Origin: Escherichia phage UGJNEcP3 | DNA length: 64,000 bases | Reading direction: 5' to 3' (one strand) | Sequence record: OV876907 | In this document: in pieces, positions 10,840 through 64,000 of the stretch | How the letters are laid out: each line of letters opens with the position of its first letter | How positions within the stretch are numbered: the first letter of the stretch is position 1 | Made by a program: the position numbers and the translations under genes | Notes under the pieces: generated by a model | What the model saw: the letters and a program-made list of their open reading frames with translations, nothing else | Told to the model about the DNA's origin: nothing | Databases searched by the model: none

Positions 10840-11162
10840 TTCCACCACCTCTTAGATTTAATTTTATCCAGTTCTTCTTGTATTTGCATTGTAACACATT
10901 TTTCTACATGAAGCGCTAGCTCTTCTTTTCGGTCTTCGGAAGGTGTTCCGAAATCAACCGACACTTTTCCATCTTTCTCAATAACAATATTCATCACATA
11001 AACGATGTGAGCAGTGCCATCGGGTAAAGTAAGCATAATTTCCTGCTTAACAGAACCCATTGACTTACGGATTATATCTAATGATTTCTCATAATAACGA
11101 GGGTCACTAGGACCCTCTTCGGTATCTTTAACAAAATTATCTAAATCAGATAAATCAGTCAT
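10833..11162 (-). CDS. 40: gene 40-like head-assembly protein
   Basis: 109 aa in the position between uvsX and 41. Confidence 0.5.
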   Translation of the reverse strand: MTDLSDLDNFVKDTEEGPSDPRYYEKSLDIIRKSMGSVKQEIMLTLPDGTAHIVYVMNIVIEKDGKVSVDFGTPSEDRKEELALHVEKCVTMQIQEELDKIKSKRWWKW

Positions 11163-12327
11163 CTAAATCCATCTCTTCTAAATCGTTTTCGATATCAGCA
11201 GCGCTTTGGGTATTTCCACCTAATTTAACAGCAACGTTCTTAGAGACGCGAGAGTTAATAAGGTCGTTAACCGCATCGTCAACTTCTTTAATAGAATTAA
11301 TTGCACCGAGCTTATACTTATTCTCGATTGCTTCACGGAACGGAGCATGTTTAAACAGCGGTCCCCAGAACTCAACGCAATCGGTAGCTTTAGCACGCCA
11401 TGCTTTTTCTTCTTGAACCATTTCACCTGTGGTTTCGTCAAGGAATGCACGATTATACCAGCCAGCTTTAGGTTTCACGACAAAGCCGATATCAGTAGCC
11501 ATTTCAAGCAATCCACTGAATGGGTCGATACCACCTTCGAAGTTAACGGTGATAGGGAACGTTGATTTCTCTTTAACCGTACGAGATTTCTCGGCCTTCA
11601 GTGTGAAGTCATAACCTGTGAGCTCGGTACCATCTTTAACCTGACGTTTAGAGATAAAGAATACGGTAGAAGCAGAGTACAGAATACCAGTACCACCACC
11701 CATAATCTCTTTAGGATACATTCCACCAATTTCCATAGCCGTGTGGTTAATTGCTACACAAGGAATATCCTTGATGGTCAGATAAGGCGTTACGATACGG
11801 AACAGAGATTTCAGTGACTTAGCACGAGTCATATCACCTACAACTTTCTCGTTCAAAGCATCTTCGGTTTCTTTCTTAGAAGCAGTGTTACCAATAGAGT
11901 CGATAAAGATAATAACCTTTTCGCCACGAGTAATTTCTTCTAACTGGTTGGTCATATCAACTTTAAGCTGTTCGACTGACTGGATTGGGGTATGAACCAC
12001 ACGTTCCAAATCAACACCCATCGAACGGAAATAAGATTCTGAAGCACCAAACTCAGAGTCATAGAACAAACAAATTGCGTCTGGATATTTCTTCATATAT
12101 GCCGCAACCATGGTAAGTCCAAACAACGTTTTAAAGTGCTTAGATGGAGCAGCAAAGATTGTCAAACCTGATTGTAAGCCTGCATTCAACGCACCACCCA
12201 ATGCAATATTCAGCATAGGGATACGAGTAGGAACTTCGTCACGACCATTAAACAATTTAGATTTGGTCAGGTCGGCAGTCATTTTAGAAGTAGAAGCTTT
12301 AATCAAACGGGATTTTAAATCAGACAT
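11155..12327 (-). CDS. uvsX: recombinase UvsX (RecA/Rad51 family)
   Basis: 390 aa; RecA-like core; position 41-40-uvsX as in T4. Confidence 0.85.
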   Translation of the reverse strand: MSDLKSRLIKASTSKMTADLTKSKLFNGRDEVPTRIPMLNIALGGALNAGLQSGLTIFAAPSKHFKTLFGLTMVAAYMKKYPDAICLFYDSEFGASESYFRSMGVDLERVVHTPIQSVEQLKVDMTNQLEEITRGEKVIIFIDSIGNTASKKETEDALNEKVVGDMTRAKSLKSLFRIVTPYLTIKDIPCVAINHTAMEIGGMYPKEIMGGGTGILYSASTVFFISKRQVKDGTELTGYDFTLKAEKSRTVKEKSTFPITVNFEGGIDPFSGLLEMATDIGFVVKPKAGWYNRAFLDETTGEMVQEEKAWRAKATDCVEFWGPLFKHAPFREAIENKYKLGAINSIKEVDDAVNDLINSRVSKNVAVKLGGNTQSAADIENDLEEMDLDD

Positions 12328-12404
12328 TATATTTTTCCATAGGCATCATTATATTTTACTCACGTTTTAAGATAGGGTAATTATATCACTTCACATTTAC
12401 AGCG

Positions 12405-13298
12405 TTAAAGGACCACGTCCTCATAACTTGGCATTTCGTGCTCAGAATGGATATGGGCACCGAAATAAATGAATTCAGCTAGACCAGGATGGAATACTAA
12501 ACCAGGATTCTCGTGATAAATGATATGAGGTCTTGATTTCAGAATCTGATAATATTCAACCTTACTAGGTTTGAATTTAATAATCTCTACATCAGGACGA
12601 TAGTCTTCACGTTTAAATGAATCATTCGGGTCGGTGATATAAAGGCGAGAACCTTCAGCTGCAGCTTGGTCTACAACTCTTTCGAATTGATAACATTTAT
12701 CAGAGATACGGAATGGATGGAAAATACCATCAATTTTAATAGGCGCTAGACCTTCAGAGTAACGCTCAATTACTGCGGGATTAATTACCTTTTGGTCTAC
12801 AAAAATCTTATCAGAGGACGCACCTCGTGACACCAGGACGTCTTTCTGGCATTGATTCAGGACTGTAGTATAAATCGAACGTTCAACTGAGGACACGTCG
12901 GTATCAATAAACTCGTCGATATAATAACGAGGAACTTCAGGGTCCATTGTAATGTTAAAGTTGAATTGTACAGTCTGAGTGCCATCATAACCTGTGATAT
13001 CGGTTACTAATCCTGAGCAGTCATAGTATTCGATTAACGAATCAACAACGAACTCGTTTTCAGACCAAAAATGTTTACGAGTTTCATAAGCATTTTCTTT
13101 ATACCAAAGCGGTACAAAATTCAGTTCAGGAAATAATTCAATGCATTCTTTGATATCGCTCGAATTTCTAGGATAAGCCAGATAATCACCTGGGCAAGCA
13201 CGGTTTAAATGGAGTTGAAAATTACCGTCCTTAAGGACGGCATATTCACCTGTTTCGTAACTACGCATACTGAAAATAGGAACGATAAACAGACTCAT
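12405..13298 (-). CDS. hypothetical protein in the beta-glucosyltransferase slot; candidate DNA-base transferase
   Basis: 297 aa; sits where T4 beta-gt lies (between uvsX and 42); no resemblance to T4 beta-gt seen by eye; ATGA overlap with gene 42 homolog. Confidence 0.5.
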   Translation of the reverse strand: MSLFIVPIFSMRSYETGEYAVLKDGNFQLHLNRACPGDYLAYPRNSSDIKECIELFPELNFVPLWYKENAYETRKHFWSENEFVVDSLIEYYDCSGLVTDITGYDGTQTVQFNFNITMDPEVPRYYIDEFIDTDVSSVERSIYTTVLNQCQKDVLVSRGASSDKIFVDQKVINPAVIERYSEGLAPIKIDGIFHPFRISDKCYQFERVVDQAAAEGSRLYITDPNDSFKREDYRPDVEIIKFKPSKVEYYQILKSRPHIIYHENPGLVFHPGLAEFIYFGAHIHSEHEMPSYEDVVL

Positions 13299-13993
13299 TT
13301 CAGGAATCCTCGAACATAGTCAAAATCACGTTCAAATACATGTGCACTAACCATAGTATGGGAATACGTACCCAGACCAACACCACACTGTTCAGCAATA
13401 AAGGCCATCAGTTTACCCTGCAGATAGAAATCCAGCTGCATAACGATAGCACAGTTCTGTGAACGCATATGAGTGTGTGCATACAGACGTCCATCACGAA
13501 TATAATATGTCACCGAATCGGTACAAGGATATTCTAAGGATTCGTCAGAATCAAGGAGGGCTTGGTCTTGTTCTTGGAGAATCTGGAACACAACTCTTCT
13601 TGAGTTAGGCTTCTCTTTAAGCTCTTTAAGTAAGGCTGGGAGTTGGGCCACAATTCGAGGTCCATAGAAAGTGTTGAAGTTTGCAGGCAATACGTCACTT
13701 TTCGGCTTATCAATGAACTTAGCAACATTAGGGTATTCCTTAAATGCTTCGGCGGCGTCAGTACCACCGGAAATCATAAACTTCCAGAAAGATTCGGCAT
13801 AATCATAGTTGATACGATTAATACGAGGGTCGGTGAATTTATAGGTGCTTGCATCCAGAACTTCAACTGAAGCCGAACCAATTTCATAACAACGACCGAT
13901 ACGAGAATCAACTGCAAACTGTGGAGCTTCCAGGATTTCTTCGTTCATTTGTTTAAATGCATTTTCAAAACTAACAGCGGTAATGTGTTTCAT
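13295..13993 (-). CDS. 42: deoxynucleotide hydroxymethylase (gene 42-like, thymidylate-synthase fold), divergent
   Basis: PNSRRVVFQ, PCTDSVTYYIRD (catalytic Cys), MRSQN...LD motifs; far more divergent from T4 than flanking core genes. Confidence 0.7.
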   Translation of the reverse strand: MKHITAVSFENAFKQMNEEILEAPQFAVDSRIGRCYEIGSASVEVLDASTYKFTDPRINRINYDYAESFWKFMISGGTDAAEAFKEYPNVAKFIDKPKSDVLPANFNTFYGPRIVAQLPALLKELKEKPNSRRVVFQILQEQDQALLDSDESLEYPCTDSVTYYIRDGRLYAHTHMRSQNCAIVMQLDFYLQGKLMAFIAEQCGVGLGTYSHTMVSAHVFERDFDYVRGFLK

Positions 13994-14526
13994 TTATTCA
14001 CCTCATAATTAATGTATTCATTAAGACGTTTTAATTCTACCATATCGACGTTAAGCAAGTTATTATGGCCGTCGTGATTTAAGATTTTAAACACGTTTTC
14101 AAAACATGTTTCATATTGGCGGATAGTTAGGTTGAACTCATCTTTAGTCAGTTTAATGAGGTCATCTTCAAAGTCTTTATCCAACGGATTACGGGTTAAA
14201 ATAACCTCAATGATATTGAATTCTTTTTTGAAATCAATCCAATCTGCTAGTTCTACATAAGGGTCCATTTCACCACGAAGGAATCCCGAGTAAACAATAT
14301 TACTAGGATAACCACGGTCTAGGATGTAAACGAAATTAGGGTCTAAAAACTTATACAACGTCTCGACTAAAGCCTTGTCATTATCAGTTCCTAACGAAAT
14401 ACATTTACCATTAATCTTTTTAGGAAAATCAATAAGACGATATTTCTTATCAGATAAAAGGGTTTCGATTAAAGTAGACTTCCCGGAATTATCCGGGCCG
14501 TCTATAACAATGATTTTTGGATTCAT
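13990..14526 (-). CDS. P-loop kinase (nucleotide/nucleoside-kinase-like)
   Basis: Walker A VIDGPDNSGKSTL near N-terminus; later DRGY motif; 178 aa. Confidence 0.55.
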   Translation of the reverse strand: MNPKIIVIDGPDNSGKSTLIETLLSDKKYRLIDFPKKINGKCISLGTDNDKALVETLYKFLDPNFVYILDRGYPSNIVYSGFLRGEMDPYVELADWIDFKKEFNIIEVILTRNPLDKDFEDDLIKLTKDEFNLTIRQYETCFENVFKILNHDGHNNLLNVDMVELKRLNEYINYEVNK

Positions 14527-14897
14527 GGATGATAGGCCTTATAACTATCAAGAGTTCCTTCGCGAACCATTTCTTTAAAGTGGTCAGGACGAATTGCTCG
14601 GTCATCGATGATAAAAGTATAACTCGGCTTGTGTGTAAGCAAATTGTGATATTTCAATCCAATTTTTTCAAGGTTCTTAACCAATGCAGGAACTACTTCA
14701 ACCAAGATTCGGCCTGGGCCGCATGAAGTCATACCACGGGCAGTGAACAATGTAATCTCATGACCTTCATCGTACAGCTTATTAATCATGGACACCATTT
14801 CGGTGTCCGGTTTAAAGTTTTCATAATCACGGTCATCTTGCCAGTGAGTAATGGTATTATCGATGTCAAAGCACAAATGCATTAAATTTTCTTCCAT
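14523..14897 (-). CDS. HAD-superfamily phosphatase-like protein
   Basis: N-terminal motif I LCFDIDNTIT (DxDxT); 124 aa. Confidence 0.5.
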   Translation of the reverse strand: MEENLMHLCFDIDNTITHWQDDRDYENFKPDTEMVSMINKLYDEGHEITLFTARGMTSCGPGRILVEVVPALVKNLEKIGLKYHNLLTHKPSYTFIIDDRAIRPDHFKEMVREGTLDSYKAYHP

Positions 14898-16555
14898 TGT
14901 TTGTGGAGTTCAGTAGAACCTGTAGGTTTATATTTTACACCAGTTTCCTGGTCAAGCAAAACCCACTTATCAGGGCATCGAGTGATAATTTGGGCCGTAA
15001 TAGGGTCACGAACTTCATCGACAAATTCACCTGTAATAAGCTTACGCTTACGAGGATGCCGCTTCAGCAGCACACTCAGTTGATATAGACCGTTGTAATA
15101 AGCGCCCAGAGCTTTCAGAGGGTTATTTTTAAAGTAACCTGCCAACGCCATCCAGATAACAGCAATCCAGAGCTTGTGCTTAAATGTACACATTGGAATA
15201 TCATCTAAAGGCATAACCTTTTCAATATCAACGAATACTCGAGTTCCATTACGAGTTAAGCCACCCCATAGAGGGTCAGAGTTAAATTTGTCATAACCAT
15301 CGATAGAATAAAGCACCTTAGCTTCATCATAAATCGCAGGGCCTTTAGAACTATTACCAAAATAACCGCGTGGGTCGATGATTTTAATATCACCTTCGTC
15401 CGACAGCATAATATTACTGTAGTGCGGGTCGCCGTGAATAAGTTGGTACGGTTCTTTATGTTCAGACAGAATTTCTAGTGCATGACGAAGAAGTTTTTCT
15501 GGGTCGCCTACCTTAAAGTCATTGACATGGGTAATGCCCTGTGGAGCAAAGCCTTCAATCAATCCAGCAATAGAAGCATTACGAATAAGGACCTTGTCCA
15601 ATACTTCTTTCTTAACATCGGAATACCATTGCTCATCGGATGGATTATCGATAGTTCCACCAAATGAACGTAATGCACTAATGACCTTATAAACCATGAG
15701 GACTTTAGTTTCTTTAGACATAAACCGATAGGCATCTGCCATGGTGCGACCAAAGATACGTTCCATTTTAATGAATTCACCTGGAGCAAAGTCTACAATG
15801 CTCGGAACAAATTCAGAATCAATAGAATTATACCAATTGATTTCTTTAGATTGGATTTCTTTACCTAATTCGTTGGTAGGTACTTTAATAGCCAGATTCT
15901 CAGTGAACTCTAATTTATTAAATTCACGGTTAATTTCAGAATCTTCATGGGCCTTAGCCAGTTTCAATTTGTCACCGACATCAACTACAAAGTCCAGCTT
16001 ACGTTCGGTCAAATGGACCATCGAATCTAGGTTATCAGCAAGGTCTTCGCCATAATTAGAACGGTTGAAGCCTGTCCAATTAGCCACCTGATACAAACCA
16101 ACCACACCACCGCCAGTACCAATTTCACGCAAGTACGGTTCTTCAAATGTAAAACGACAGTCAGTCCCGTAGGTATAGCAATAGTCGTTATCCCACTCAA
16201 CTTTATGACCCTCAGGAATGATGTCACACCAGTTAAACAAGACGTTATGGCCAATGATATCTTCAGCAATGCAATCGATAGCATGAGCTGAACCATTAGC
16301 CACATCTACGTTACGAATAGTGAATTTAGGCTTATCACTATTAATCATGTTAATGGATTTAATATAGCCTTTAACGAGGTCGTTAAATTTGCTGTGAATA
16401 ACCAGAATAATTTCATCTGATTGGTTACTATACAAATCATACAAATGTTTTAATACAGTATGTTGTTTGTAGTTAACCAATACCTTCGGGATTTCGTTAG
16501 TAATTGGATACAACCGTGAGCCAAGACCCGCGCCTAAAATAACAACCTTTTTCAT
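14882..16555 (-). CDS. bifunctional nucleotidyltransferase / APH-family (sugar- or choline-type) kinase
   Basis: N-terminal VILGAGLGSRLYPIT...PK (NDP-sugar pyrophosphorylase signature); C-terminal LIHGDPHYSNIML and IIDPRG (Brenner phosphotransferase motif); ATG 16555 with SD GAGGAA. Confidence 0.65.
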   Translation of the reverse strand: MKKVVILGAGLGSRLYPITNEIPKVLVNYKQHTVLKHLYDLYSNQSDEIILVIHSKFNDLVKGYIKSINMINSDKPKFTIRNVDVANGSAHAIDCIAEDIIGHNVLFNWCDIIPEGHKVEWDNDYCYTYGTDCRFTFEEPYLREIGTGGGVVGLYQVANWTGFNRSNYGEDLADNLDSMVHLTERKLDFVVDVGDKLKLAKAHEDSEINREFNKLEFTENLAIKVPTNELGKEIQSKEINWYNSIDSEFVPSIVDFAPGEFIKMERIFGRTMADAYRFMSKETKVLMVYKVISALRSFGGTIDNPSDEQWYSDVKKEVLDKVLIRNASIAGLIEGFAPQGITHVNDFKVGDPEKLLRHALEILSEHKEPYQLIHGDPHYSNIMLSDEGDIKIIDPRGYFGNSSKGPAIYDEAKVLYSIDGYDKFNSDPLWGGLTRNGTRVFVDIEKVMPLDDIPMCTFKHKLWIAVIWMALAGYFKNNPLKALGAYYNGLYQLSVLLKRHPRKRKLITGEFVDEVRDPITAQIITRCPDKWVLLDQETGVKYKPTGSTELHKQWKKI

Positions 16556-16615
16556 TATCTGTTCCTCAAGTGAATGTAGGTACATTATACACTATTTTTA
16601 ATAAATTGGTATTGC

Positions 16616-23714: not shown

Positions 23715-23906
23715 TTAATCAAAGTACTCGTAGACAAACCATGCCGGATTTCTATTTGACATGATTTTATCATATTCTGACTTAAAAGCATTTCGGAGAT
23801 ATTCTTCAGTAACAAGATGCTCATCTCCAGAGAAGTTGTTAACTAAAACGTATCTCTTTATTTCTGGAAAGGCCAACAAATGCTGGCCTGTTATAAAATC
23901 ACTCAT
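23715..23906 (-). CDS. hypothetical protein (63 aa)
   Basis: ORF on dominant strand. Confidence 0.35.
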   Translation of the reverse strand: MSDFITGQHLLAFPEIKRYVLVNNFSGDEHLVTEEYLRNAFKSEYDKIMSNRNPAWFVYEYFD

Positions 23907-24589
23907 TATGAAGCATCCTTTAATTTACAATTATCAAAGTGCCATCGTTTCATAATGTTGTTAGAGCCAATTTTATCACAATATGGGCACTTTACAGTTG
24001 GTCTGCTTTTAGCTTTTGCAGATTGTTTGCTTTTCATAGCCTGTTTTGCTTCGTCAGACCTAGAATTAAGGGCTATAGAAATTTTATCCCTTGTTTCTTG
24101 GCTATGAGTTTTTCCGAACATAGGGTTGTTCTCAGGCAAATATGTACCATTTCTTATATTACTCTGACGAATTTTTTCTATATGTTCTTTAGATTTATTT
24201 CTTAGCTCTAGGCATTTAGATTTCTTTCTAGTTTTAAAAAGGTTTTCATAAAATGAATACGGTCTATTTTTAGCAGCTATACTCTGTTTAAGTCTGGTTT
24301 CCTCTTTTATAAAAGGTGCGGCATTACCTCCTAAAGAAATATTATATGTAAGAGGGTTCTTTATAAATTCCTCATTGACTATAATTCTTTCCATTTGGAT
24401 AGCCTCTTCTCTGGTATCAAAATTATAAAGTATTTCCTTTCTATGATTTTCCAAACCATATTTTTTAATAGAAGCTTTAATATATAAACCAGAGCCCATA
24501 TACGAATCTTTAATATTTTCAGTACTATGTATCCCTACATAGTACTTATTATTAACTAAATTTATTATTTTGTAAACAAGATGTCTCAT
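23906..24589 (-). CDS. GIY-YIG homing endonuclease (Seg-like)
   Basis: N-terminal YKIINLVNNKYYVGIHS...YMGSG...R...E...NISLGGN; basic C-terminal DNA-binding region; free-standing between 45 and 46. Confidence 0.65.
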   Translation of the reverse strand: MRHLVYKIINLVNNKYYVGIHSTENIKDSYMGSGLYIKASIKKYGLENHRKEILYNFDTREEAIQMERIIVNEEFIKNPLTYNISLGGNAAPFIKEETRLKQSIAAKNRPYSFYENLFKTRKKSKCLELRNKSKEHIEKIRQSNIRNGTYLPENNPMFGKTHSQETRDKISIALNSRSDEAKQAMKSKQSAKAKSRPTVKCPYCDKIGSNNIMKRWHFDNCKLKDAS

Positions 24590-34889: not shown

Positions 34890-35097
34890 TATCTTCTCGC
34901 TCAAATTTATGTTTGCAATGTCGGCATTTGTAACGAAGATTACTAGACTGCCAATGGACCAGTTGGACTTGTTCGGTTCCGCATTCCGGACAGTTAGGAA
35001 CATTCTTGGAAGCTTGTTCACGGCGATGAACCATAGCCATCACAGCATCCCAATCAGGAATAGTTTGGTCAATATCGTCAGCTAATTGATATTTCAT
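34876..35097 (-). CDS. zinc-ribbon protein (73 aa)
   Basis: CPECG...CRHCKH. Confidence 0.4.
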
Positions 35098-36104
35098 TTC
35101 AACAGCTCCAGAGCTTGTTCAAGGCGGTCTAAACGATTAGTAGACTCTTCCCAAAGTTTCTTGGCAGCAGTATATTGTCCAGTCAGTTTTTTGTTAATAG
35201 CAAGGGCGTCTTTATACGCTTTTTCCAGAGCAACGACTTCTGGTAACTTGGATTTAGTAATTGGTGTAGGGACCATGATAGGGCTGTTCAAGTCGTTAAT
35301 CAAGTCTTCTAATGTAGCAGGCTCTTTATCAGTATTCACAATTTCCTCACATTTTTCTTGGTAAATTTCAGCATCGGTTTTTGGAACATGACATTTGATT
35401 TCACGGACTGTTACTAAAACTTCATATCCTTTCCAGCCTAAGTGGTGTTTAACTTCTTGGGTCTCATATTTCTCTACGGTATCCATCAGAGCTAAAGCCT
35501 GTTCGATAGTATTCAAGGTATCGTAAGCAATATCTTGATACTTTACAACTTCTGGCTCATCTTTAGGTTTCCGGTTTGGTGACCAGATAACGGAAATAAG
35601 CACCTTTCCTTTATAGGCGTTTGTTTTAATCATGCAATTTGCCATAGGATGAATGGTGCGGCTATCACCAGCAACTACTGTTTTAGTGGCGGCTTTGAGG
35701 ATTAATGCAGAGTTAGCCTTGAATTCAGCGGCCCAACGTTGTGGAAATAAACTACTAGGGTCCATACCTTTAATTTTGACATAACCTTTTATGGTATCGC
35801 CAAACCATTTGTAGCTAACAACATGGCTAGAACCAGGATATTTCTCTCTACCAAACTCAGAAAGGATGTCCTTATTGACCAGCCGCGAAAGCAGTCGAGA
35901 ACCTTTAAATGTATCTACGATATCATTAATAAACAAGCGACCCGCGATCTTTTCGATTTCAGCTTTGAAACAGCGCGATAATGCATCATCAATTTGGTCG
36001 ACCCATTTATTGATATTAGAAACTATTACCACATATGGGGTTAATGGAGGGGTATTGGCAGTGATATACGTAGTAAAGGCATTGATGTATTCGGTACGAG
36101 TCAT
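35094..36104 (-). CDS. hypothetical protein (336 aa)
   Basis: large ORF; no motif recognised. Confidence 0.5.
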   Translation of the reverse strand: MTRTEYINAFTTYITANTPPLTPYVVIVSNINKWVDQIDDALSRCFKAEIEKIAGRLFINDIVDTFKGSRLLSRLVNKDILSEFGREKYPGSSHVVSYKWFGDTIKGYVKIKGMDPSSLFPQRWAAEFKANSALILKAATKTVVAGDSRTIHPMANCMIKTNAYKGKVLISVIWSPNRKPKDEPEVVKYQDIAYDTLNTIEQALALMDTVEKYETQEVKHHLGWKGYEVLVTVREIKCHVPKTDAEIYQEKCEEIVNTDKEPATLEDLINDLNSPIMVPTPITKSKLPEVVALEKAYKDALAINKKLTGQYTAAKKLWEESTNRLDRLEQALELLK

Positions 36105-36161: not shown

Positions 36162-37067
36162 TTATTTTAGAGCTAATACTGCAGCGCGAAGCTTATCACG
36201 TTGGAGTTCCATGTTCTTGATGCGAATCAATACGTCTTGAATGCTCTTTTTCTCATCTTCAATCTGACCATTTAAACGGTGGATTGATTCCTGAATGCTA
36301 TCTGCATAATAGGTCTCAATAGGTTTCATCGTAGGGTTAGTAACAACCAAAGAATTATCAGGTTTAATTTTCCAATGATATGGTTCGGAATTGAATGGAC
36401 TAGGCACAGCAGTGGTTTTGAATTTGTCATAGGCTGCATACTGGGCTACACTGTCACATGATACTGTAGAGGTAGCGATAGATATACGACGTTCCATTTG
36501 TGGGTCCTTTTGTTGGGATTGATAAGGGGCATAAGACAAAAGATATTCACGAGTTAGTTTAACATTAAAATACACCGCATCAGCCCGTCCAGAACAATCA
36601 GCATATTCATCGGTTGTAACTTTATATGATTCTACGGCCTTAATACGAGTCATTGCTTCTCTGAATAAGGTTTCGAATGCTTCACGAAGGGCCTTATTAC
36701 CTTTTGAGGTAGGACGGAAACGAACTTGAATACCGTCAGCCAGAATATTAATGACTAGGTTACGAGCCGTAAAATTAATACTTTTGATATTAACAGGAAC
36801 CGTAGAAATACGTCCTGCGGTAGCCAAGAGGTCTTTGATATTAGCCCGCAATGTTGCACCAAACAGGTGGGCTGGGCAACGGCAATAATCGTTCAAAGAA
36901 CCGATATAAGTTCCTTTACGTCCTACACCATAAGTATAATTACCATTACGAATATAGCCAAAGTCGGCTAGCCGATCGATAGCGATACGACGAGTCGTGT
37001 CATGGTCGTATATAGAGTATTCTTTACGTGTTTTAATGTTCATATTAAAGTCCAAATAATTTTTCAT
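36162..37067 (-). CDS. hypothetical protein (301 aa)
   Basis: large ORF; no motif recognised. Confidence 0.5.
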   Translation of the reverse strand: MKNYLDFNMNIKTRKEYSIYDHDTTRRIAIDRLADFGYIRNGNYTYGVGRKGTYIGSLNDYCRCPAHLFGATLRANIKDLLATAGRISTVPVNIKSINFTARNLVINILADGIQVRFRPTSKGNKALREAFETLFREAMTRIKAVESYKVTTDEYADCSGRADAVYFNVKLTREYLLSYAPYQSQQKDPQMERRISIATSTVSCDSVAQYAAYDKFKTTAVPSPFNSEPYHWKIKPDNSLVVTNPTMKPIETYYADSIQESIHRLNGQIEDEKKSIQDVLIRIKNMELQRDKLRAAVLALK

Positions 37068-37247: not shown

Positions 37248-38093
37248 TTAATCCTTAAGAAGATTTAAAATATCTGTATATTTCCTACGTTCAGCCTTAG
37301 CTTTAGCGTTCAGACCAGAGAGTCGGAAAATCTCATCATCTTGTTGTTGGATTGTAACATTCAAGCAAGTAAGCAAATTGCTAAAATACTCGATTTGAGC
37401 TTGATGCTTCTCATTGCTGCGCACTGGTACAGGTTCTGGTTTAGGAGCTTGTTCTGAAGGCTCTTCAGCCAGGTCTTTAATTTTATAAAGTTTAATACGC
37501 TGACCCACTCCAGTTTCGGCATCACCGAAACTAAGAACACCATGCTGTTCTAATTCAGACAGGGCCAAGCGCAGATGGAACTTCCAGTTGTCGTATTGAC
37601 ACCCACTGTAATGGGAAATAGTATACTCATTTTCATTTCCTGGGTGGTTAACAATATTAAAGATAATCCAATCACCTGAGCCATTGGTCTTAAAGGTCAT
37701 TTGTTTATCAAGACCTTTTGCAAGGCGAGCGCCAAGAGCCAGTAGACGTCGTTGGTTGGCATTAAGGTCTTGAACAACTTCGTCAAATGACATCGCCGGG
37801 ATTAAACGACCATAAAGGTCGTAGCCTTTGTTATAATTTTTAAGAATAATTTTGGCATTAGCACGAGACAACATACCTGTTTTACGAAGAGTTTTCATGA
37901 CCCGGTCTTCTAAGGTAAAAGACCCTTTGGTCTTTTCAAAGATTTTAGTGAAGTCATCTTTAACAGTACAAACATTGAACTTGTCCCACATCATATATAG
38001 AACCTTTTCAACTACTTCTTTAGAACTCGGAATACGACCAAATTTAATAACTTTTTTAACTTCAGAACGAATTTGATTAATTGCCTGTGACAT
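37248..38093 (-). CDS. hypothetical protein (281 aa)
   Basis: ORF. Confidence 0.5.
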   Translation of the reverse strand: MSQAINQIRSEVKKVIKFGRIPSSKEVVEKVLYMMWDKFNVCTVKDDFTKIFEKTKGSFTLEDRVMKTLRKTGMLSRANAKIILKNYNKGYDLYGRLIPAMSFDEVVQDLNANQRRLLALGARLAKGLDKQMTFKTNGSGDWIIFNIVNHPGNENEYTISHYSGCQYDNWKFHLRLALSELEQHGVLSFGDAETGVGQRIKLYKIKDLAEEPSEQAPKPEPVPVRSNEKHQAQIEYFSNLLTCLNVTIQQQDDEIFRLSGLNAKAKAERRKYTDILNLLKD

Positions 38094-39090: not shown

Positions 39091-40146
39091 TTATTTCAGA
39101 AGTGTAACTTCAGCGATTTCGCTCCAGTCATTTTTATCGGTGGCAATGAAATCCGCCAGATAAAGAGCTGTACGTAATGATACGTTACGAAGACGAGATA
39201 CATTAGCCTTCATCCAGGACAGTGCTTGATAAGTCTCGGCATCAGTCAGACCACGGTTTTGCATCATATCAGTGGACAGGATAACGTCTTCAACACGAAC
39301 CATAATCTCTTCGTTAGAGTGAACTCCGAGGTCTAAGTAAACTGAACGAGATACTAAAGCCTGGAGGTGTGGAGCAAGTTTAGTTCCACGCTCTAATTCA
39401 CGGTCAATATCAACGTTGGTGATGAACACGATGGTGCCTTCGTATTCGAATTCTTTATCGATATTTTTATCATCAAGGTAAGAACTTGAAGTGCTCCAGC
39501 ACACCTTACGTTTTTCACCGGTATCCAATGCTGCTTTTAACAGGTTCAGGATATCCATATCAGAGAATACATCAACATCATCAATAAGAAGAACACTATT
39601 AGGGCCGCGGTTATTCCAAAGCTGCTCGTAAAGACCGATTCCACTAATCTTTCCGTTGATTGATTTATATTCGATAGTTTCATTTTCGTGGGCATTTTGT
39701 AATGCTTTATCCAAAGAGTACGTTTTACCAATACCTGCTGCACCAGAGATGATAAGGGAACGAATTTTACCATCGATGATTCCATTAGTCATCATATTCA
39801 TTACTTTAAAACGTTTGTTGATGCGGTGTTTCATTTCATCCTGGGATTCAGTTACGACTACAGGAGATTCAGTACCTTCCATTTCGATGTCACATTTGAA
39901 CACCCATACACCACGTTCAACACCATCAATCTGTACAAATACCTTGCCATCACCGAGATGAGCTTCGGATTCATGAATTTTATTAGGGAACCAGGTTTTA
40001 CCTGAACTCATGAACGTACCAGAGATTTCATTACCGCGATAGATGCCTTTGTTGATTTTGATAGTTAACATTTTATTCTCCATTTCACTCAGTAGATTTG
40101 ATAGGTCCATAATAACATGCTCTACGAGGTTGTAAACACTTTTTTG
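39091..40146 (-). CDS. AAA-type P-loop ATPase
   Basis: Walker A ISGAAGIGKTYSL, Walker B VLLIDDVD; start at second ATG of ATGGAGAATAAAATG leader. Confidence 0.55.
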   Translation of the reverse strand, partial: QKSVYNLVEHVIMDLSNLLSEMENKMLTIKINKGIYRGNEISGTFMSSGKTWFPNKIHESEAHLGDGKVFVQIDGVERGVWVFKCDIEMEGTESPVVVTESQDEMKHRINKRFKVMNMMTNGIIDGKIRSLIISGAAGIGKTYSLDKALQNAHENETIEYKSINGKISGIGLYEQLWNNRGPNSVLLIDDVDVFSDMDILNLLKAALDTGEKRKVCWSTSSSYLDDKNIDKEFEYEGTIVFITNVDIDRELERGTKLAPHLQALVSRSVYLDLGVHSNEEIMVRVEDVILSTDMMQNRGLTDAETYQALSWMKANVSRLRNVSLRTALYLADFIATDKNDWSEIAEVTLLK

Positions 40147-40187: not shown

Positions 40188-41186
40188 TTATCGATAATAG
40201 GCGTTGTGGTTGTCAAGATAAACCTCTTCAACAAATTTGTCCCAGAAGCTCATGTCTACCTTATCAGGCATACCGTTCTTGGCGGCCCAGATAGCATTTG
40301 TTTCGACTTCATCAACGATTGATTCAAGCTCAGCTTGGACATCTTTAAAAGCGTGTAGACCCTGCTTGATTTCCAGGATAAACGGAGCAGTTCTTAAAGG
40401 GTACTTTAAGTCACCAGTCATATAAATTTCTTTCAACTGATAACCAGCACGATAAGCATGACTCAGAGCTTTCCAGTCAATACCTTCATTAGCTTCGGCC
40501 TTACGAGCACGTTCACCATATTCAGCGTCCAGTTTGTTCAGAGACTGCTTAAGCTCGATAAGAGAAAGCGTTGTCTGATATTTTCGACCCAACACAGTGT
40601 AGAATGTTTGTGGACCTGTTTTCTCGTGATTGTGGAATACCCATTCGCAGAATTCGTTCTCTGGGAGTCGATGTTTAATATCTTCTACCTTAGTACGACG
40701 TTGTTTAGTTGAACCATCTTCTTGATAATCGACCCATTGTTCAGGAATCTGGTTGACGATTGCCAGTACACCACGCAGAGCAGCCAGACGAGAACCTTTA
40801 ACACCATATTTAGAAGCTTGCTTACGGACGTACCCTAAATAGGCTTTCATGTTAGTCGTATAGAACCGAGAACGGTTATCTTGGATAAATTTCCATACAT
40901 CAGGTAAATCGGATTTAACCACCATTTCAGGCGGAGTATGGAGCATATCCAGAGCAACGGTTTCGCCTTCAGCCGCTAGTTTAAAGAAATATTTCAGACT
41001 GTAAAGCTCATGGTCAACATCATCTTTAGTGTTTTTGGACGCAGTGTTATTCGTGTTCAGGTTGGTATGGTTCATTGCCGTACCCAACAGAATATCACGC
41101 GGATGTGGAACAAAGATTTCTTTAAAATCGACATCAGATTCCGGAGTACTTGTTCCATAAAGATGGCTACCGAAGTAGCCTTTCAT
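40188..41186 (-). CDS. Pol-beta-superfamily nucleotidyltransferase-like protein
   Basis: N-terminal GSHLYGTSTPESDVDF (GS-x10-DxD); start at second ATG (41186). Confidence 0.45.
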   Translation of the reverse strand: MKGYFGSHLYGTSTPESDVDFKEIFVPHPRDILLGTAMNHTNLNTNNTASKNTKDDVDHELYSLKYFFKLAAEGETVALDMLHTPPEMVVKSDLPDVWKFIQDNRSRFYTTNMKAYLGYVRKQASKYGVKGSRLAALRGVLAIVNQIPEQWVDYQEDGSTKQRRTKVEDIKHRLPENEFCEWVFHNHEKTGPQTFYTVLGRKYQTTLSLIELKQSLNKLDAEYGERARKAEANEGIDWKALSHAYRAGYQLKEIYMTGDLKYPLRTAPFILEIKQGLHAFKDVQAELESIVDEVETNAIWAAKNGMPDKVDMSFWDKFVEEVYLDNHNAYYR

Positions 41187-63427: not shown

Positions 63428-63435
<8 letters not shown>

Positions 63436-64000
63436 TTTTATTTCCTAATAATTTATCAATAGTAGTGTATAGTTCAGAAAGAGTGCCGTTATTTTCAACA
63501 ACAACGTCACCAGGTAAAATTGGTAGACCCGCTTCAGTGATGTGCGAGTCTTGTACTTGACCGGTTTCAGCGCGAACTACATGAATAATCGTAGCACCCA
63601 TCGCTCTGAGTGAATCAATTTCGTGTGTTTGACGAACATCAGGTACGACATAGTATTTCGCATCAGAGTATATTTTATCAAAATAGTCTAAAGCGAACAA
63701 CTTAACCCAATACATCTTATCAAATTGGTTAACAATAATATCAGTCCCAAGGGTCTGCATGAGACGACGTACTGACCAATTGTTATTTTTATTTATTACT
63801 TCAAATAGCTGGTCTTTTGTTTCTTCAGACAGATATTGGACCGGGGTAAGACCGTAATGATATGCGGTAAGAACATCAATTCCTGGAATAGGAAGGATAT
63901 TATTCAGTTTAACAATAGCATGTTCAAAAATATCAACCACATCATACGGTTTTAAAGGAAGGGTTTCTTCACGGTCGTAACCGATACCTTCAAAACAATT
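63428..64000 (-). CDS. 1: dNMP kinase (gene 1), 5'-truncated by window edge
   Basis: ...NWSVRRLMQTLGTDIIVNQFDKMYWVKLFALDYFDK...VPDVRQTHEIDSLRAMGATIIHVVR...HITEAGLP... matches C-terminal two-thirds of T4 gp1; frame stays open to position 64000. Confidence 0.8.

What the first reader, a model, noticed from the sequence alone, without database searches (positions are those of the whole stretch)
12405..13298. Unknown 297-aa protein sits exactly where beta-glucosyltransferase should be
The position and the translational coupling to the hydroxymethylase gene make it the prime candidate for the enzyme that transfers the new group onto hydroxymethyl-pyrimidine DNA. I could not see any similarity to T4 beta-gt.
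Basis: inference. Interest (0 to 1): 0.75.

Follow-up and report, generated by a model that had tools for sequence, protein, structure and literature searches.

The report
Phage cytosine first-sugar transferase candidate
This phage gene most likely encodes the enzyme that attaches the first sugar (arabinose) to a hydroxylated cytosine of the virus's DNA; the family was proposed for phage RB69 in 2025-26, so the find is real but not new, and its activity has not been shown in any paper I could read.

Summary
The ORF is real. It encodes 297 aa on the minus strand (12405-13298) and is ATGA-coupled to the upstream thymidylate-synthase homologue. It sits where T4 carries beta-gt and is under purifying selection. 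The window is Dhakavirus phage UGJNEcP4 (100% identity over the 25 kb tested).

The protein has no Pfam or NCBIfam model and no sequence similarity to T4 alpha/beta-gt. An alignment-based AlphaFold model (pLDDT 95) shows a compact GT-B glycosyltransferase fold. It is the 67%-identical orthologue of RB69 gp46:47 and belongs with DLP3 gp79, both proposed in a 2026 paper (2025 preprint) as "arabinosyltransferase 1".

The neighbour is not a hydroxymethylase. It carries the D169N/N177D/L143E signature of flavin-dependent 5-hydroxy-dCMP synthases. The acceptor is therefore 5-hydroxycytosine, and the donor is probably UDP-arabinofuranose made by the adjacent AfhE/AfhF-like genes. No second transferase was detected in this genome, which predicts mono-arabinosylated DNA.

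Not mentioned in the papers I could read: the family is repeatedly fused to a TMK-like nucleotide kinase and to KdsC-like sugar phosphatases, and it is strongly acidic. This keeps open that the first sugar is added to the nucleotide rather than to DNA. Activity remains undemonstrated.

Verdict: correct hunch, wrong chemistry, known family.

The parts
12405..13298 (-). Target gene: 297-aa GT-B-fold protein, predicted initiating 5-hydroxycytosine arabinofuranosyltransferase (orthologue of RB69 gp46:47, DLP3 gp79 and Thanatos TH1_063; PHROG 3891).
   Evidence: - ORF.
- phrog_3891, E 1e-158.
- No Pfam or NCBIfam model.
- 69% and 64% identity to RB69 ORF047c and ORF046c.
- AF2 model pLDDT 95.2, pTM 0.90.
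- GT-B hits in PDB and BFVD.
13295..13298 (-). ATGA stop/start overlap between the ThyA-homologue gene and the target (translational coupling), with AGGA 8 nt upstream of the start codon.
   Evidence: Read directly from the sequence.
13295..13993 (-). 5-hydroxy-dCMP synthase (flavin-dependent thymidylate-synthase homologue). It is not a dCMP hydroxymethylase.
   Evidence: - Pfam Thymidylat_synt.
- 79% identity to RB69 gp48.
- D169N, N177D, L143E and C146 conserved, whereas T4 gp42 and the phage's own td keep D169.
- PDB 9iqu/9iqc/9ir2 match at E 1.5e-125.
- Biochemistry of gp48: PMC13326640.
13990..14526 (-). TMK-like P-loop nucleotide kinase (RB69 gp45 family). It accompanied the transferase in every context examined and is fused to it in some phages.
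   Evidence: - phrog_761 'thymidylate kinase', E 1e-38.
- 37% identity to RB69 gp45.
- Neighbour or fusion partner in L007, L012, L013, L014, L016, L017, L018 and L019.
14523..14897 (-). HAD-family sugar-phosphate phosphatase (AfhF / RB69 gp51 homologue). Proposed step: Araf-1,5-bisphosphate to Araf-1-phosphate. The deposited annotation starts it at 14882.
   Evidence: - 61% identity to RB69 gp51.
- NCBIfam capsule biosynthesis phosphatase, E 5e-14.
- Role taken from PMC13326640.
14882..16555 (-). Bifunctional sugar kinase / sugar-1-phosphate uridylyltransferase (AfhE / RB69 gp52:53 homologue), predicted to make the UDP-pentose donor. The longest ORF runs to 16585. The likely start is the MKKVVILGAGLG methionine at 16555, as in the deposited annotation.
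   Evidence: - Pfam NTP_transferase (residues 13-110) plus APH (356-427).
- phrog_4098.
- 41-44% identity to RB69 gp52/53.
- Annotation in OV877765.
- Role taken from PMC13326640.
4145..4666 (-). gp56 dCTPase/dUTPase. It supplies dCMP and excludes dCTP (upstream step of the pathway).
   Evidence: 94% identity to RB69 gp28. Annotated as a nucleoside triphosphate pyrophosphohydrolase in OV877765.
63428..64000 (-). gp1-type dNMP kinase, cut by the window end. The RB69 homologue phosphorylates 5hodCMP.
   Evidence: Annotation of OV877765 at 76066-76827. RB69 gp159 activity is reported in PMC13326640.

Best explanation
The gene encodes the initiating glycosyltransferase of a cytosine-hypermodification pathway.

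**Pathway**
1. gp56 dCTPase supplies dCMP.
2. The translationally coupled ThyA homologue hydroxylates dCMP to 5-hydroxy-dCMP. This is shown for 79%-identical RB69 gp48 and inferred here from the signature residues.
3. Kinases convert it to the triphosphate, and the phage polymerase inserts 5-hydroxycytosine in place of C.
4. In parallel, the AfhE-like kinase/uridylyltransferase and the AfhF-like phosphatase turn host arabinose-5-phosphate into UDP-D-arabinofuranose (inferred by homology).
5. The 297-aa GT-B enzyme binds the UDP-sugar in its small C-terminal Rossmann domain and the hydroxylated pyrimidine in its highly conserved N-terminal domain. It transfers the arabinofuranosyl group to the C5 hydroxyl, giving 5-O-alpha-D-arabinofuranosyl-cytosine.

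**Less certain steps**
- The transfer most likely acts on 5hoC already in DNA, as the T4 glucosyltransferases do. This is the least certain step.
- I found no RB69 gp3-type extender transferase in this genome, so I predict mono-arabinosylated DNA.
For: 1. **Fold.** The AF2 model built from 58 homologues has pLDDT 95.2 and pTM 0.90. Foldseek against PDB returns only GT-B proteins at probability 1.00. The retaining GT4-type enzymes MshA 3c4q (TMq 0.63), BshA, HepE and PglA have the best TM-scores. BFVD returns viral group-1 glycosyltransferases and 'DNA alpha-GT' entries.
2. **Orthology.** The protein is 69%/64% identical to RB69 ORF047c/046c. The RB69 pair is a single gene split by a sequencing error and was proposed as arabinosyltransferase 1, with the same best PDB match 3c4q (PMC13326640).
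3. **Operon.** The order is AfhE-like, AfhF-like, kinase, 5hodCMP synthase, transferase, with overlapping stops and starts.
4. **Acceptor chemistry.** The neighbour has D169N/N177D/L143E and matches PDB 9iqu/9iqc at E 1e-125.
5. **Phyletic pattern.** This family occurs in 356 phage records and the gp3 extender family in 212, limited to Mosigvirus-level Escherichia/Shigella phages and Acinetobacter phages. Thanatos, reported as mono-arabinosylated, has this family and is described as encoding a single ara-GT. Serratia phage X20, which shares a host with mono-arabinosylated LC53, has this family and no gp3 hit.
6. **Single candidate.** The whole UGJNEcP4 genome has one family member and no gp3, alpha-gt or beta-gt homologue.
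7. **Distant relatives.** Relatives at 35-40% identity on 356-383-kb contigs keep the trio of D169N-ThyA, transferase and kinase.
8. **Fusions.** At least 8 representative clusters fuse the family to a KdsC-type sugar-phosphate phosphatase. At least 9 fuse it to the TMK-like nucleotide kinase. These partners correspond to the donor and acceptor sides of the proposed reaction.
Against: - No paper I could read has measured transferase activity for any member. Lee et al. saw no arabinosylation of 5hoC-DNA by single DLP3 transferases with UDP-Araf or UDP-Arap.
- The 51%-identical Thanatos orthologue was reported to form UDP-xylose from UTP and xylose-1-P.
- The lowest Foldseek E-values belong to UDP-GlcNAc 2-epimerases, which share the GT-B fold.
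- The protein is very acidic: pI 4.83 with 47 acidic against 28 basic residues, family median pI 5.2, against 9.05 for T4 beta-gt. This is unusual for a DNA-binding enzyme.
- The AfhE-like enzyme is only 42-45% identical to those of phages related to the ones with proven arabinose (RB69 itself, Acinetobacter and Serratia relatives), and the genome lacks an arabinose-5-P isomerase. The sugar in Dhakavirus is therefore not proven.
- Two large ORFs without any Pfam hit remain in the window, so a second cryptic transferase cannot be excluded.
- He et al. 2026 and Mahler et al. 2025 could not be read.
Confidence: 0.62

Rival explanations
1. Same enzyme and same donor, but the acceptor is the free nucleotide. 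The transferase arabinosylates 5-hydroxy-dCMP. The dedicated TMK-like kinase then phosphorylates the bulky product, and the polymerase incorporates ready-glycosylated dCTP. This would be pre-replicative glycosylation.
For: - The transferase and the TMK-like kinase were adjacent, near or fused in every context examined.
- They are fused in both orders in at least 9 representative clusters.
- The gene order ThyA*-GT-kinase in RB69, HY126, Thanatos, X20, L012 and L013 matches consecutive steps.
- The phage already has a gp1 dNMP kinase, and the RB69 homologue accepts 5hodCMP. The second kinase therefore needs another role.
- The protein is strongly acidic.
- No activity was seen on 5hoC-DNA, and the authors state they cannot tell the mononucleotide from DNA as the acceptor of the first sugar.
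- From general knowledge: 5-hydroxy-dC in DNA is a mutagenic lesion excised by host Nth, Nei and Fpg, so a phage would gain by never exposing it.
Against: - Every characterised phage DNA glycosylation (T4 alpha/beta-gt, and DLP3 gp76+77 on RB69 DNA) is post-replicative.
- 5hodCTP is readily incorporated in vivo.
- A fusion shows functional linkage, not consecutive steps. The kinase may simply make 5hodCDP, especially in phages without gp1.
- There is no direct evidence for arabinosyl-dCMP or arabinosyl-dCTP pools.
Confidence: 0.15
2. The protein is a glycosyltransferase for 5-hydroxycytosine, but in Dhakavirus (and Marfavirus) it transfers a pentose or other sugar different from D-arabinofuranose.
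For: - The donor-making AfhE-like enzyme is about equally distant (42-45% identity) from the homologues in the phages sampled that are relatives of known arabinosylators. It is 80% identical to that of Klebsiella Marfavirus F48 and 71% to Proteus SJ_PmiM.
- Dhakavirus and Marfavirus F48 both lack the arabinose-5-P isomerase that RB69, HY126, X20 and L013 have.
- Lee et al. assign the gene beside the D169N ThyA homologue of Rhizobium phage RL38J1 (gp215) as a galactosyltransferase. My search found only weak, uninspected hits in Rhizobium phages.
- No chemical analysis of Dhakavirus DNA was found.
Against: - The transferase (67%) and the phosphatase (61%) are close to the RB69 proteins.
- From general knowledge, E. 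coli makes arabinose-5-P itself through KdsD and GutQ, so a phage isomerase is dispensable.
- Lee et al. place Dhakaviruses among the groups in which 5hodC biosynthesis is conserved, and show them in a figure of cytosine arabinosylation gene clusters.
Confidence: 0.12
3. The protein is a UDP-pentose pyrophosphorylase that makes the sugar donor, as reported for the Thanatos orthologue TH1_063. Some other protein transfers the sugar.
For: Purified His-tagged TH1_063 incubated with UTP and xylose-1-P gave a UDP-xylose peak that was absent from a no-enzyme control (PMC12838424). The closely related phage Thanatos-2 encodes a 51%-identical, syntenic, 300-aa homologue, which I take to correspond to TH1_063.
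Against: - The fold is GT-B, not the nucleotidyltransferase fold. There is no GxGxR motif and no NTP_transferase Pfam hit.
- A bona fide NTP_transferase domain with GAGLGSR sits in the adjacent 557/567-aa protein. For HY126 that protein is reported to be the UDP-arabinose pyrophosphorylase.
- The Thanatos assay had only a no-enzyme control, so a co-purified host uridylyltransferase is not excluded (my inference).
- No other transferase candidate exists in this genome.
Confidence: 0.04
4. The protein is a GT-B-fold sugar-nucleotide-modifying enzyme (epimerase-like) that tailors the donor rather than transferring it.
For: The top Foldseek E-values (about 2e-6) belong to non-hydrolysing UDP-GlcNAc 2-epimerases. 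Lee et al. list the same top hit class for RL38J1 gp215.
Against: - TM-scores are higher for true glycosyltransferases (MshA 0.63 against 0.50).
- There is no Epimerase_2 Pfam hit.
- The pathway would be left without any transferase in about 140 genomes.
- The conserved pairing is with a nucleotide kinase and a pyrimidine hydroxylase, not with sugar enzymes.
Confidence: 0.04

Closest known systems
RB69 gp46:47 / DLP3 gp79 / HY126 XAN60474 / Thanatos TH1_063 ('arabinosyltransferase 1', PHROG 3891; Lee et al., NAR 2026, PMC13326640)
   Same: - Full-length orthologue: 67% identity to RB69 and 51% to Thanatos-2.
- Same compact GT-B fold, with the same best PDB neighbour (MshA 3c4q).
- Same position next to the D169N 5hodCMP synthase.
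- Same accompanying AfhE/AfhF-like and TMK-like genes.
   Different: - The operon here is the smallest version I saw. It has no gp3-type second transferase, no arabinose-5-P isomerase and no U32 'peptidase' gp50/gp49.
- The kinase lies upstream instead of downstream.
- The AfhE-like enzyme is divergent at 42% identity.
- Function is predicted, not demonstrated, for all members.
T4 beta-glucosyltransferase (CAZy GT63)
   Same: Same genomic slot between uvsX and the ThyA-family gene, early/middle nucleotide-metabolism region, and the GT-B fold class. It has the same biological role of sugar-coating a C5-oxygenated cytosine to block restriction (fold class from general knowledge).
   Different: - No detectable sequence similarity (hhalign probability 0.2%).
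- T4 beta-gt is not among the 50 best Foldseek PDB matches listed.
- It is 351 aa and basic (pI 9.05), against 297 aa and acidic (pI 4.83) here.
- Its acceptor is 5-hydroxymethyl-C and its donor UDP-glucose.
RB69 gp3 (ORF003c) and DLP3 gp76/gp77 extender arabinosyltransferases
   Same: Same pathway and the same GT-B fold class. DLP3 gp76+77 add arabinose from UDP-Araf to arabinosylated DNA.
   Different: - Unrelated in sequence (hhalign probability 0.2%).
- Restricted to Mosigvirus-level Escherichia/Shigella phages and Acinetobacter phages (212 records against 356).
- Absent from this genome.
- They act on a sugar acceptor, not on the base.
Retaining GT4-type GT-B glycosyltransferases (MshA, BshA, PimA, PglA)
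   Same: - Best structural superpositions, TMq 0.56-0.63.
- The C-domain carries an R197-x3-K201 pair after its first strand and an H270-P-G-x2-E275 segment. From my memory of GT4 enzymes, these lie where GT4 enzymes carry their diphosphate-binding Arg/Lys and EX7E motif (not aligned here).
- A retaining mechanism would fit the alpha-linked first arabinose reported for RB69.
   Different: - No Glycos_transf_1 Pfam hit, even for remote family members.
- No PDB hit with the family profile.
- About 70-100 residues shorter, with a reduced C-domain.
- The acceptor is a nucleobase.
Rhizobium phage RL38J1 gp215 ('galactosyltransferase 1')
   Same: Per Lee et al., it sits beside a D169N 5hodCMP synthase (gp216) and a TMK-like kinase (gp214), and has epimerase/GT-B structural matches. 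My search found weak hits of the target in four Rhizobium phage records, which I did not inspect.
   Different: The proposed donor is a UDP-galactose species and the host family is Pootjesviridae. The sequence relationship to the target was not established here.

Membership tests
Phage 5-hydroxycytosine initiating glycosyltransferase family (RB69 gp46:47 / DLP3 gp79; PHROG 3891) | Full-length sequence homology to the founding members | tested here: met
   - phrog_3891: E 1.2e-158 over residues 1-296.
- 69% and 64% identity to RB69 ORF047c and ORF046c.
- 49.5% identity to Acinetobacter DLP2-type phages and 50.8% to Thanatos-2.
Phage 5-hydroxycytosine initiating glycosyltransferase family (RB69 gp46:47 / DLP3 gp79; PHROG 3891) | GT-B two-Rossmann-domain fold | tested here: met
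   - Model pLDDT 95.2 and pTM 0.90, with alternating beta/alpha elements in two domains.
- 110 PDB matches at E<=1e-3; every one of the 50 listed is a GT-B protein.
- TM 0.96 to the Acinetobacter KARL-1 orthologue model.
Phage 5-hydroxycytosine initiating glycosyltransferase family (RB69 gp46:47 / DLP3 gp79; PHROG 3891) | Encoded next to a D169N thymidylate-synthase homologue (5hodCMP synthase) | tested here: met
   - ATGA overlap with the neighbouring gene.
- D169N, N177D and L143E in the neighbour.
- The same arrangement holds in Thanatos-2, L012 and L013.
- Exception: L014, L018 and L019 show no ThyA homologue within about 5-8 kb on either side.
Phage 5-hydroxycytosine initiating glycosyltransferase family (RB69 gp46:47 / DLP3 gp79; PHROG 3891) | Co-occurrence with UDP-arabinofuranose synthesis genes (AfhE-like kinase/uridylyltransferase, AfhF-like phosphatase) | tested here: met
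   Both genes are present in the same operon, at 41-44% and 61% identity to RB69 gp52:53 and gp51. The arabinose-5-P isomerase is absent.
Phage 5-hydroxycytosine initiating glycosyltransferase family (RB69 gp46:47 / DLP3 gp79; PHROG 3891) | Transfers arabinofuranose from UDP-Araf to the 5-OH of 5-hydroxycytosine | not testable with these tools
   This needs an enzyme assay. It is also not shown for any member in the literature I could read.
T4 beta-glucosyltransferase (GT63) | Sequence homology to T4 beta-gt | tested here: not met
   - tblastn of T4 beta-gt against the window and the whole genome: nothing at E<=0.01.
- hhalign of the family profile against T4 beta-gt: probability 0.2%.
T4 beta-glucosyltransferase (GT63) | Works with a dCMP hydroxymethylase that provides 5-hydroxymethylcytosine as acceptor | tested here: not met
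   The neighbour has Asn, not Asp, at ThyA position 169, unlike T4 gp42. It is 25% identical to gp42 but 79% identical to the RB69 hydroxylase.
GT4-type retaining glycosyltransferases (Pfam Glycos_transf_1 and relatives) | Match to the family's sequence profile, including the EX7E motif | tested here: not met
   - No Pfam family at E<=0.1 for the target or for 10 remote relatives.
- The family profile finds no PDB sequence below E 0.25.
- Only a positional resemblance remains (R197/K201 and H270..E275).
GT4-type retaining glycosyltransferases (Pfam Glycos_transf_1 and relatives) | GT-B fold superposable on MshA, BshA or PimA | tested here: met
   Foldseek probability 1.00. TMq is 0.63 for MshA 3c4q_B, 0.58 for BshA 6n1x and 0.58 for PglA 8dvw.
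Sugar-1-phosphate nucleotidyltransferases (UDP-sugar pyrophosphorylases) | NTP_transferase fold with the N-terminal G-x-G-x-R nucleotide-binding motif | tested here: not met
   There is no NTP_transferase hit and no such motif in the target, and the fold is GT-B. The motif and the domain are in the neighbouring 567-aa protein.
Non-hydrolysing UDP-GlcNAc 2-epimerases | Sequence profile (Pfam Epimerase_2) and the epimerase active site | tested here: inconclusive
   These give the lowest Foldseek E-values (1.8e-6), but TMq is only about 0.50 at 9-14% identity. There is no Pfam hit.

The most novel reading that the evidence does not exclude
The first sugar is put on the free nucleotide, not on DNA. 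The transferase would glycosylate 5-hydroxy-dCMP straight after the coupled hydroxylase makes it. The always-accompanying (and sometimes fused) TMK-like kinase would be specialised to phosphorylate the bulky arabinosyl-dCMP. The polymerase would then build DNA from a pre-glycosylated dCTP. As far as I know, this would be the first pre-replicative nucleotide glycosylation pathway. It would also explain why homologous transferases were inactive on 5hoC-DNA in vitro, and why the phage never exposes the mutagenic, repair-prone 5-hydroxycytosine lesion.
Probability: 0.15. Interest if true: 0.8.

Novelty: new member of a known kind. Interest (0 to 1): 0.35.

Why it matters
**An old puzzle.** JS98-type (Dhakavirus) coliphages were flagged in 2010 as having a gene-42 homologue but no glucosyltransferase (PMC2993671). 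This gene, with its hydroxylase neighbour, is the predicted answer. These phages should carry 5-O-arabinosyl-cytosine, not hmC.

**Practical consequences.** The modification affects restriction and CRISPR evasion, sequencing and cloning of these therapeutic-candidate phages, and the annotation of roughly 350 phage genomes that still call this gene 'hypothetical' and its neighbour 'thymidylate synthase' or 'dCMP hydroxymethylase'.

**A model system.** The Dhakavirus operon is the smallest version of the pathway I saw: five genes and one transferase. That makes it the cleanest system for the still-missing biochemical proof of the first transfer step. It would also settle whether that step acts on DNA or on the nucleotide, a question sharpened by the kinase fusions found here.

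Tried and rejected
**Searches and predictions that gave nothing**
- Single-sequence AlphaFold gave a useless model (pLDDT 31.6). It was replaced by the alignment-based model.
- Pfam and NCBIfam have no model for the target or its remote relatives.
- The family profile against PDB sequences found nothing below E 0.25.
- hhalign against T4 beta-gt and RB69 gp3 showed no relationship.
- tblastn of T4 alpha-gt, beta-gt and RB69 gp3, gp49, gp50 and gp55 against the reconstructed 170,590-bp genome found none.
- phmmer of the window's kinase and phosphatase against the fusion proteins found nothing. Profile-profile comparison was needed.
- The HAD domain fused to some family members is KdsC-type, not the window's AfhF-type.

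**Tools and papers not available**
- He et al. 2026 (Nat Chem Biol) and Mahler et al. 2025 (Cell Host Microbe) are not in the library. Any direct assay of this family reported there is unknown to me.
- The HY126 GenBank record carries no Afh gene names.

**Weak or rejected lines**
- The promoter/terminator scan was not above chance.
- I rejected a structural-protein or RNA-polymerase-binding role. Some records label the orthologue 'RNA polymerase binding protein', and no evidence supports that label.
Full report
**1. Observation.** Its ATG overlaps the TGA of the upstream 232-aa gene in an ATGA junction, with AGGA 8 nt upstream of the start. It lies between uvsX (11155-12327) and a thymidylate-synthase-family gene. 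In T4 that slot holds segA and beta-gt next to gene 42. It is a genuine gene. tblastn finds full-length homologues in about 350 phage genomes. All 12 nucleotide differences from the QL01 copy are synonymous.

**2. Origin and context.** The first 25 kb of the window are 100% identical to Escherichia phage UGJNEcP4 (OV877765.1, genus Dhakavirus), with window position 1 at record position 12639. The target is UGJNECP4_00048, annotated 'hypothetical protein'. It is the last gene of a tightly packed minus-strand operon downstream of DNA polymerase, imm and a 166-aa ORF:
- a 557/567-aa protein with an N-terminal sugar-1-phosphate nucleotidyltransferase domain and a C-terminal APH-type kinase domain;
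- a 119/124-aa HAD phosphatase;
- a 178-aa thymidylate-kinase-like P-loop protein;
- the ThyA homologue;
- the target.

Adjacent genes overlap by 1-4 nt. By tblastn these correspond to RB69 gp52:53, gp51, gp45, gp48 and gp47+gp46 at 41-44%, 61%, 37%, 79% and 69/64% identity.

**3. The neighbour is a hydroxylase, not a hydroxymethylase.** I aligned it with E. coli ThyA, T4 gp42, RB69 gp48 and the phage's own td. It keeps the catalytic Cys146 and has N177D (dCMP specificity) and L143E. It has Asn at position 169, where ThyA, td and T4 gp42 have Asp. Lee et al. (NAR 2026, PMC13326640) showed three things:
- RB69 gp48 and DLP3 gp80 make 5-hydroxy-dCMP, with the oxygen coming from O2 and a bound flavin;
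- D169N is diagnostic, since nine diverse D169N homologues all produced 5hodC;
- RB69 DNA carries beta-D-Araf-(1-3)-alpha-D-Araf ether-linked to C5 of 5-hydroxycytosine, not arabinosyl-hmC as first thought.

The window protein also matches PDB entries 9iqu/9iqc/9ir2 at E 1.5e-125.

**4. The protein itself.** It has no Pfam or NCBIfam match and belongs only to PHROG 3891, 'unknown function'. Sequence comparison with T4 beta-gt, T4 alpha-gt and RB69 gp3 is negative. A family profile finds no PDB sequence. A single-sequence AlphaFold run failed. A run on an alignment of 58 homologues gave pLDDT 95.2 and pTM 0.90.
- The model has two Rossmann-like beta/alpha domains: roughly residues 1-170 and 190-285, with a C-terminal helix.
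- Foldseek against PDB gives 110 hits at E<=1e-3. Every one of the 50 listed is a GT-B protein. UDP-GlcNAc 2-epimerases have the lowest E-values (about 2e-6, TMq 0.5). Retaining GT4 enzymes superpose best: MshA 3c4q 0.63, BshA 0.58, PglA 0.58, HepE 0.56.
- BFVD returns the Acinetobacter orthologue (TM 0.96), the two RB69 half-proteins, and many viral group-1 glycosyltransferases and 'DNA alpha-GT' entries.
- Conservation is concentrated after the first strands of both domains. The motifs are MRS(11-13), KDGN(23-26), Y66/N69/R74/W78, N113-x-N115, R124-x-YID(126-128), FxPFRISDK(193-201), TDPN(222-225), K246 and HPG(270-272).

**5. What the literature says.** Thomas et al. 2018 proposed RB69 ORF003c (gp3) as the arabinosyltransferase and did not consider ORF046c/047c. 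Lee et al. 2026 recognised that ORF046c/047c is one gene split by a sequencing error, modelled it and got the same 3c4q match. They proposed it and DLP3 gp79 as the initiating 'arabinosyltransferase 1', with gp3/gp77/gp76 as extenders. They list Dhakaviruses among the groups with conserved synteny. They detected no activity of single DLP3 transferases on 5hoC-DNA, and state they cannot tell whether the first arabinose goes onto the mononucleotide or onto DNA. Only the third arabinose was reconstituted, using gp76+gp77 on RB69 DNA with UDP-Araf. Brandt et al. reported that Thanatos TH1_063 forms UDP-xylose from UTP and xylose-1-P. I take TH1_063 to correspond to the 51%-identical, syntenic, 300-aa homologue in Thanatos-2. 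Two probably decisive papers, He et al. 2026 and Mahler et al. 2025, are not in the library.

**6. Phyletic pattern.** The target family occurs in 356 phage records, including Escherichia, Acinetobacter, Klebsiella, Shigella, Serratia, Enterobacter, Proteus, Yersinia, Rhizobium and Shewanella phages. The gp3 family occurs in 212: Mosigvirus-level Escherichia/Shigella phages and Acinetobacter phages, plus a few unclassified records. About 140 genomes therefore have this protein as their only candidate transferase. I reconstructed the full 170,590-bp UGJNEcP4 genome from the window and three fetched pieces. It contains exactly one family member and no homologue of gp3, alpha-gt, beta-gt, the arabinose-5-P isomerase gp55 or the U32 'peptidase' gp50. 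Phages reported as mono-arabinosylated fit the picture: Thanatos and Prodigiosinella phage LC53. Serratia phage X20, which shares LC53's host, has this family and no gp3 hit. Bas46, Bas47 and RB69, reported as di-arabinosylated, are Mosigvirus-type. I therefore predict mono-arabinosylation for this phage.

**7. Distant relatives and fusions (not described in the papers I could read).** An exhaustive profile search finds 238 representative clusters at E<=1e-3.
- Relatives at 35-40% identity on 356- and 383-kb contigs keep the trio of D169N-ThyA, transferase and TMK-like kinase. One also has the isomerase and an AfhE-like gene. The other has a Flavodoxin_2 gene two genes upstream.
- Among the best 150 clusters, at least eight carry the TMK-like kinase fused to the C-terminus and one carries it at the N-terminus. 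The fused domain is homologous to the window's kinase family (hhalign 94.3%, E 1e-7, against 0.3% for a control; Pfam Thymidylate_kin E 1e-4).
- At least eight others carry an N-terminal KdsC-type sugar-phosphate phosphatase (profile against PDB KdsC, E 1e-10 to 3e-13).
- The kinase accompanied the transferase in every context I examined.

These fusions tie the family independently to sugar-phosphate chemistry on one side and to pyrimidine-nucleotide chemistry on the other.

**8. Mechanism, and what is shown versus inferred.**
- Shown elsewhere for close homologues: dCMP to 5hodCMP (RB69 gp48); phosphorylation of 5hodCMP by the gp1-type kinase; the AfhE/AfhF activities in HY126, as summarised; extension on DNA from UDP-Araf.
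- Shown here: orthology, fold, operon structure, signature residues, the single candidate in the genome, and the fusions.
- Inferred: this protein binds UDP-Araf in the C-domain. R197/K201, K246 and H270..E275 lie where, from my memory of GT4 enzymes, those enzymes bind the diphosphate and sugar. It binds the 5-hydroxypyrimidine in the conserved N-domain and forms the alpha-glycosidic ether to O5. Arabinose-5-P comes from the host KdsD/GutQ (general knowledge), because the phage lacks the isomerase.
- Least certain: the physical form of the acceptor. I put DNA first, by analogy with all known phage DNA glycosyltransferases and the DNA-level extension step.

**9. Rivals.**
- (a) *Nucleotide-level (pre-replicative) glycosylation.* This is favoured by the kinase linkage and fusions, the ThyA*-GT-kinase gene order in most lineages, the redundancy of the kinase with gp1, the negative 5hoC-DNA assay, and the strong acidity of the family (pI 4.83; family median 5.2; T4 beta-gt 9.05). 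I give it about 15%.
- (b) *A different sugar in Dhakavirus and Marfavirus.* Their AfhE-like enzyme is 80% identical between the two genera. It is only 42-45% identical to the homologues in relatives of known arabinosylators. Both genera lack the isomerase. About 12%.
- (c) *UDP-pentose pyrophosphorylase.* This contradicts the fold and is made redundant by the true nucleotidyltransferase next door. About 4%.
- (d) *Epimerase-like donor tailoring.* About 4%.

**10. Novelty and score.** The family, its position, its predicted role and even the inclusion of Dhakaviruses are already in a 2026 paper (2025 preprint). A specialist would not be surprised. It is a new, still unannotated member of a known (predicted) kind, in the most reduced operon I saw. 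Two things remain open and directly testable: the first transfer step itself, and whether it occurs on DNA or on the nucleotide. Interest 0.35.

**11. Limits.**
- Absence of a second transferase rests on sequence searches. The target itself is invisible to Pfam, and two large unassigned ORFs remain in the window.
- No chemical data exist for any Dhakavirus in the papers I could search.

Noticed in passing
L014 8049-9125; L018 10053-11153; L019 10179-11276; L020 2681-3778 (related loci, not the window): In three distant contexts the transferase sits beside a Peptidase_U32-like protein that is 46-50% identical to RB69 gp50. In two of them it is fused to the TMK-like kinase. No ThyA homologue lies within the roughly 5-8 kb held on either side. 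From general knowledge, U32 proteins include RlhA, TrhP and UbiU/V, which are O2-independent hydroxylation factors. gp50-like proteins may therefore be an alternative, possibly anaerobic, route to 5-hydroxycytosine. The Dhakavirus in the window has only the O2-dependent ThyA-type enzyme and no U32 gene.
   Followed up: partly
window 14882-16585 (-): The AfhE-like kinase/uridylyltransferase is 42-45% identical to the homologues in RB69-type, Acinetobacter, Serratia and Yersinia phages. It is 80% identical to Klebsiella Marfavirus F48 and 71% to Proteus phage SJ_PmiM. Dhakavirus and Marfavirus F48 both lack the arabinose-5-P isomerase. The operon is a mosaic, since the transferase does not show this grouping. 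The donor sugar is not certain.
   Followed up: partly
L012 5426-5932 (GCA_040384225.1 contig JAWVHC010000046.1, 383 kb): A Flavodoxin_2 (FMN-dependent reductase-like) gene lies two genes upstream of a D169N ThyA homologue, transferase and kinase trio on a jumbo-phage-sized contig. This fits a flavin-dependent hydroxylase that needs a reductase.
   Followed up: no
window 23906-24589 (-): A homing-endonuclease gene (UGJNECP4_00063) sits between the gp45.2-like gene and gene 46. Megablast alignments to most other Dhakaviruses (IME08, WG01, C6 and others) stop at window position 23907. This suggests a mobile insertion specific to this phage lineage.
   Followed up: no
window 35094-36104 (-) and 37248-38093 (-): Two large ORFs (336 and 281 aa) have no Pfam match at all. 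They sit in a block of unassigned genes that also holds DUF7235 (36162-37043). The target itself is invisible to Pfam, so they cannot be excluded as further cryptic enzymes.
   Followed up: partly
window 39091-40110 (-) and 40188-41186 (-): Two adjacent genes stand out: a 339-aa protein with weak AAA/STAND-NTPase and HTH_37 matches, and a 332-aa RlaP-type (RNA-repair-pathway, pol-beta superfamily) nucleotidyltransferase. This could be an RNA-repair or counter-defence pair.
   Followed up: no
window 12380-12408 (-): The best sigma-70-like match near the target (TTAACG-17-TATAAT with an upstream TG) starts at the target's stop codon and faces uvsX. It is probably the uvsX promoter. The overall promoter count in the region was not above chance.
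   Followed up: no
Serratia phages PS2 (NC_024121.1 24147-24683) and Muldoon (MN095771.1 23275-24135): These phages have very distant homologues of the target (23-26% identity). The Muldoon model superposes at TM 0.76. Thomas et al. 2018 report that PS2 has T4 beta-gt and T2 beta-alpha-gt homologues, that is, a glucosyl-hmC-type system. This may be a diverged branch with another acceptor.
   Followed up: no
UGJNEcP4 record 124074-130337 (outside the window; L010 1-5438): Three tandem Alt-like RNA-polymerase ADP-ribosyltransferase genes.
   Followed up: no
Public annotations of orthologues (for example PQ572755.1, MT457553.1 TH2_066, MZ348424.1): Orthologues of the target are variously labelled 'RNA polymerase binding protein', 'cysteine desulfurase' or 'hypothetical'. 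The hydroxylase neighbour is labelled 'thymidylate synthase' or 'dCMP hydroxymethylase'. These annotations are misleading and have propagated across hundreds of records.
   Followed up: no
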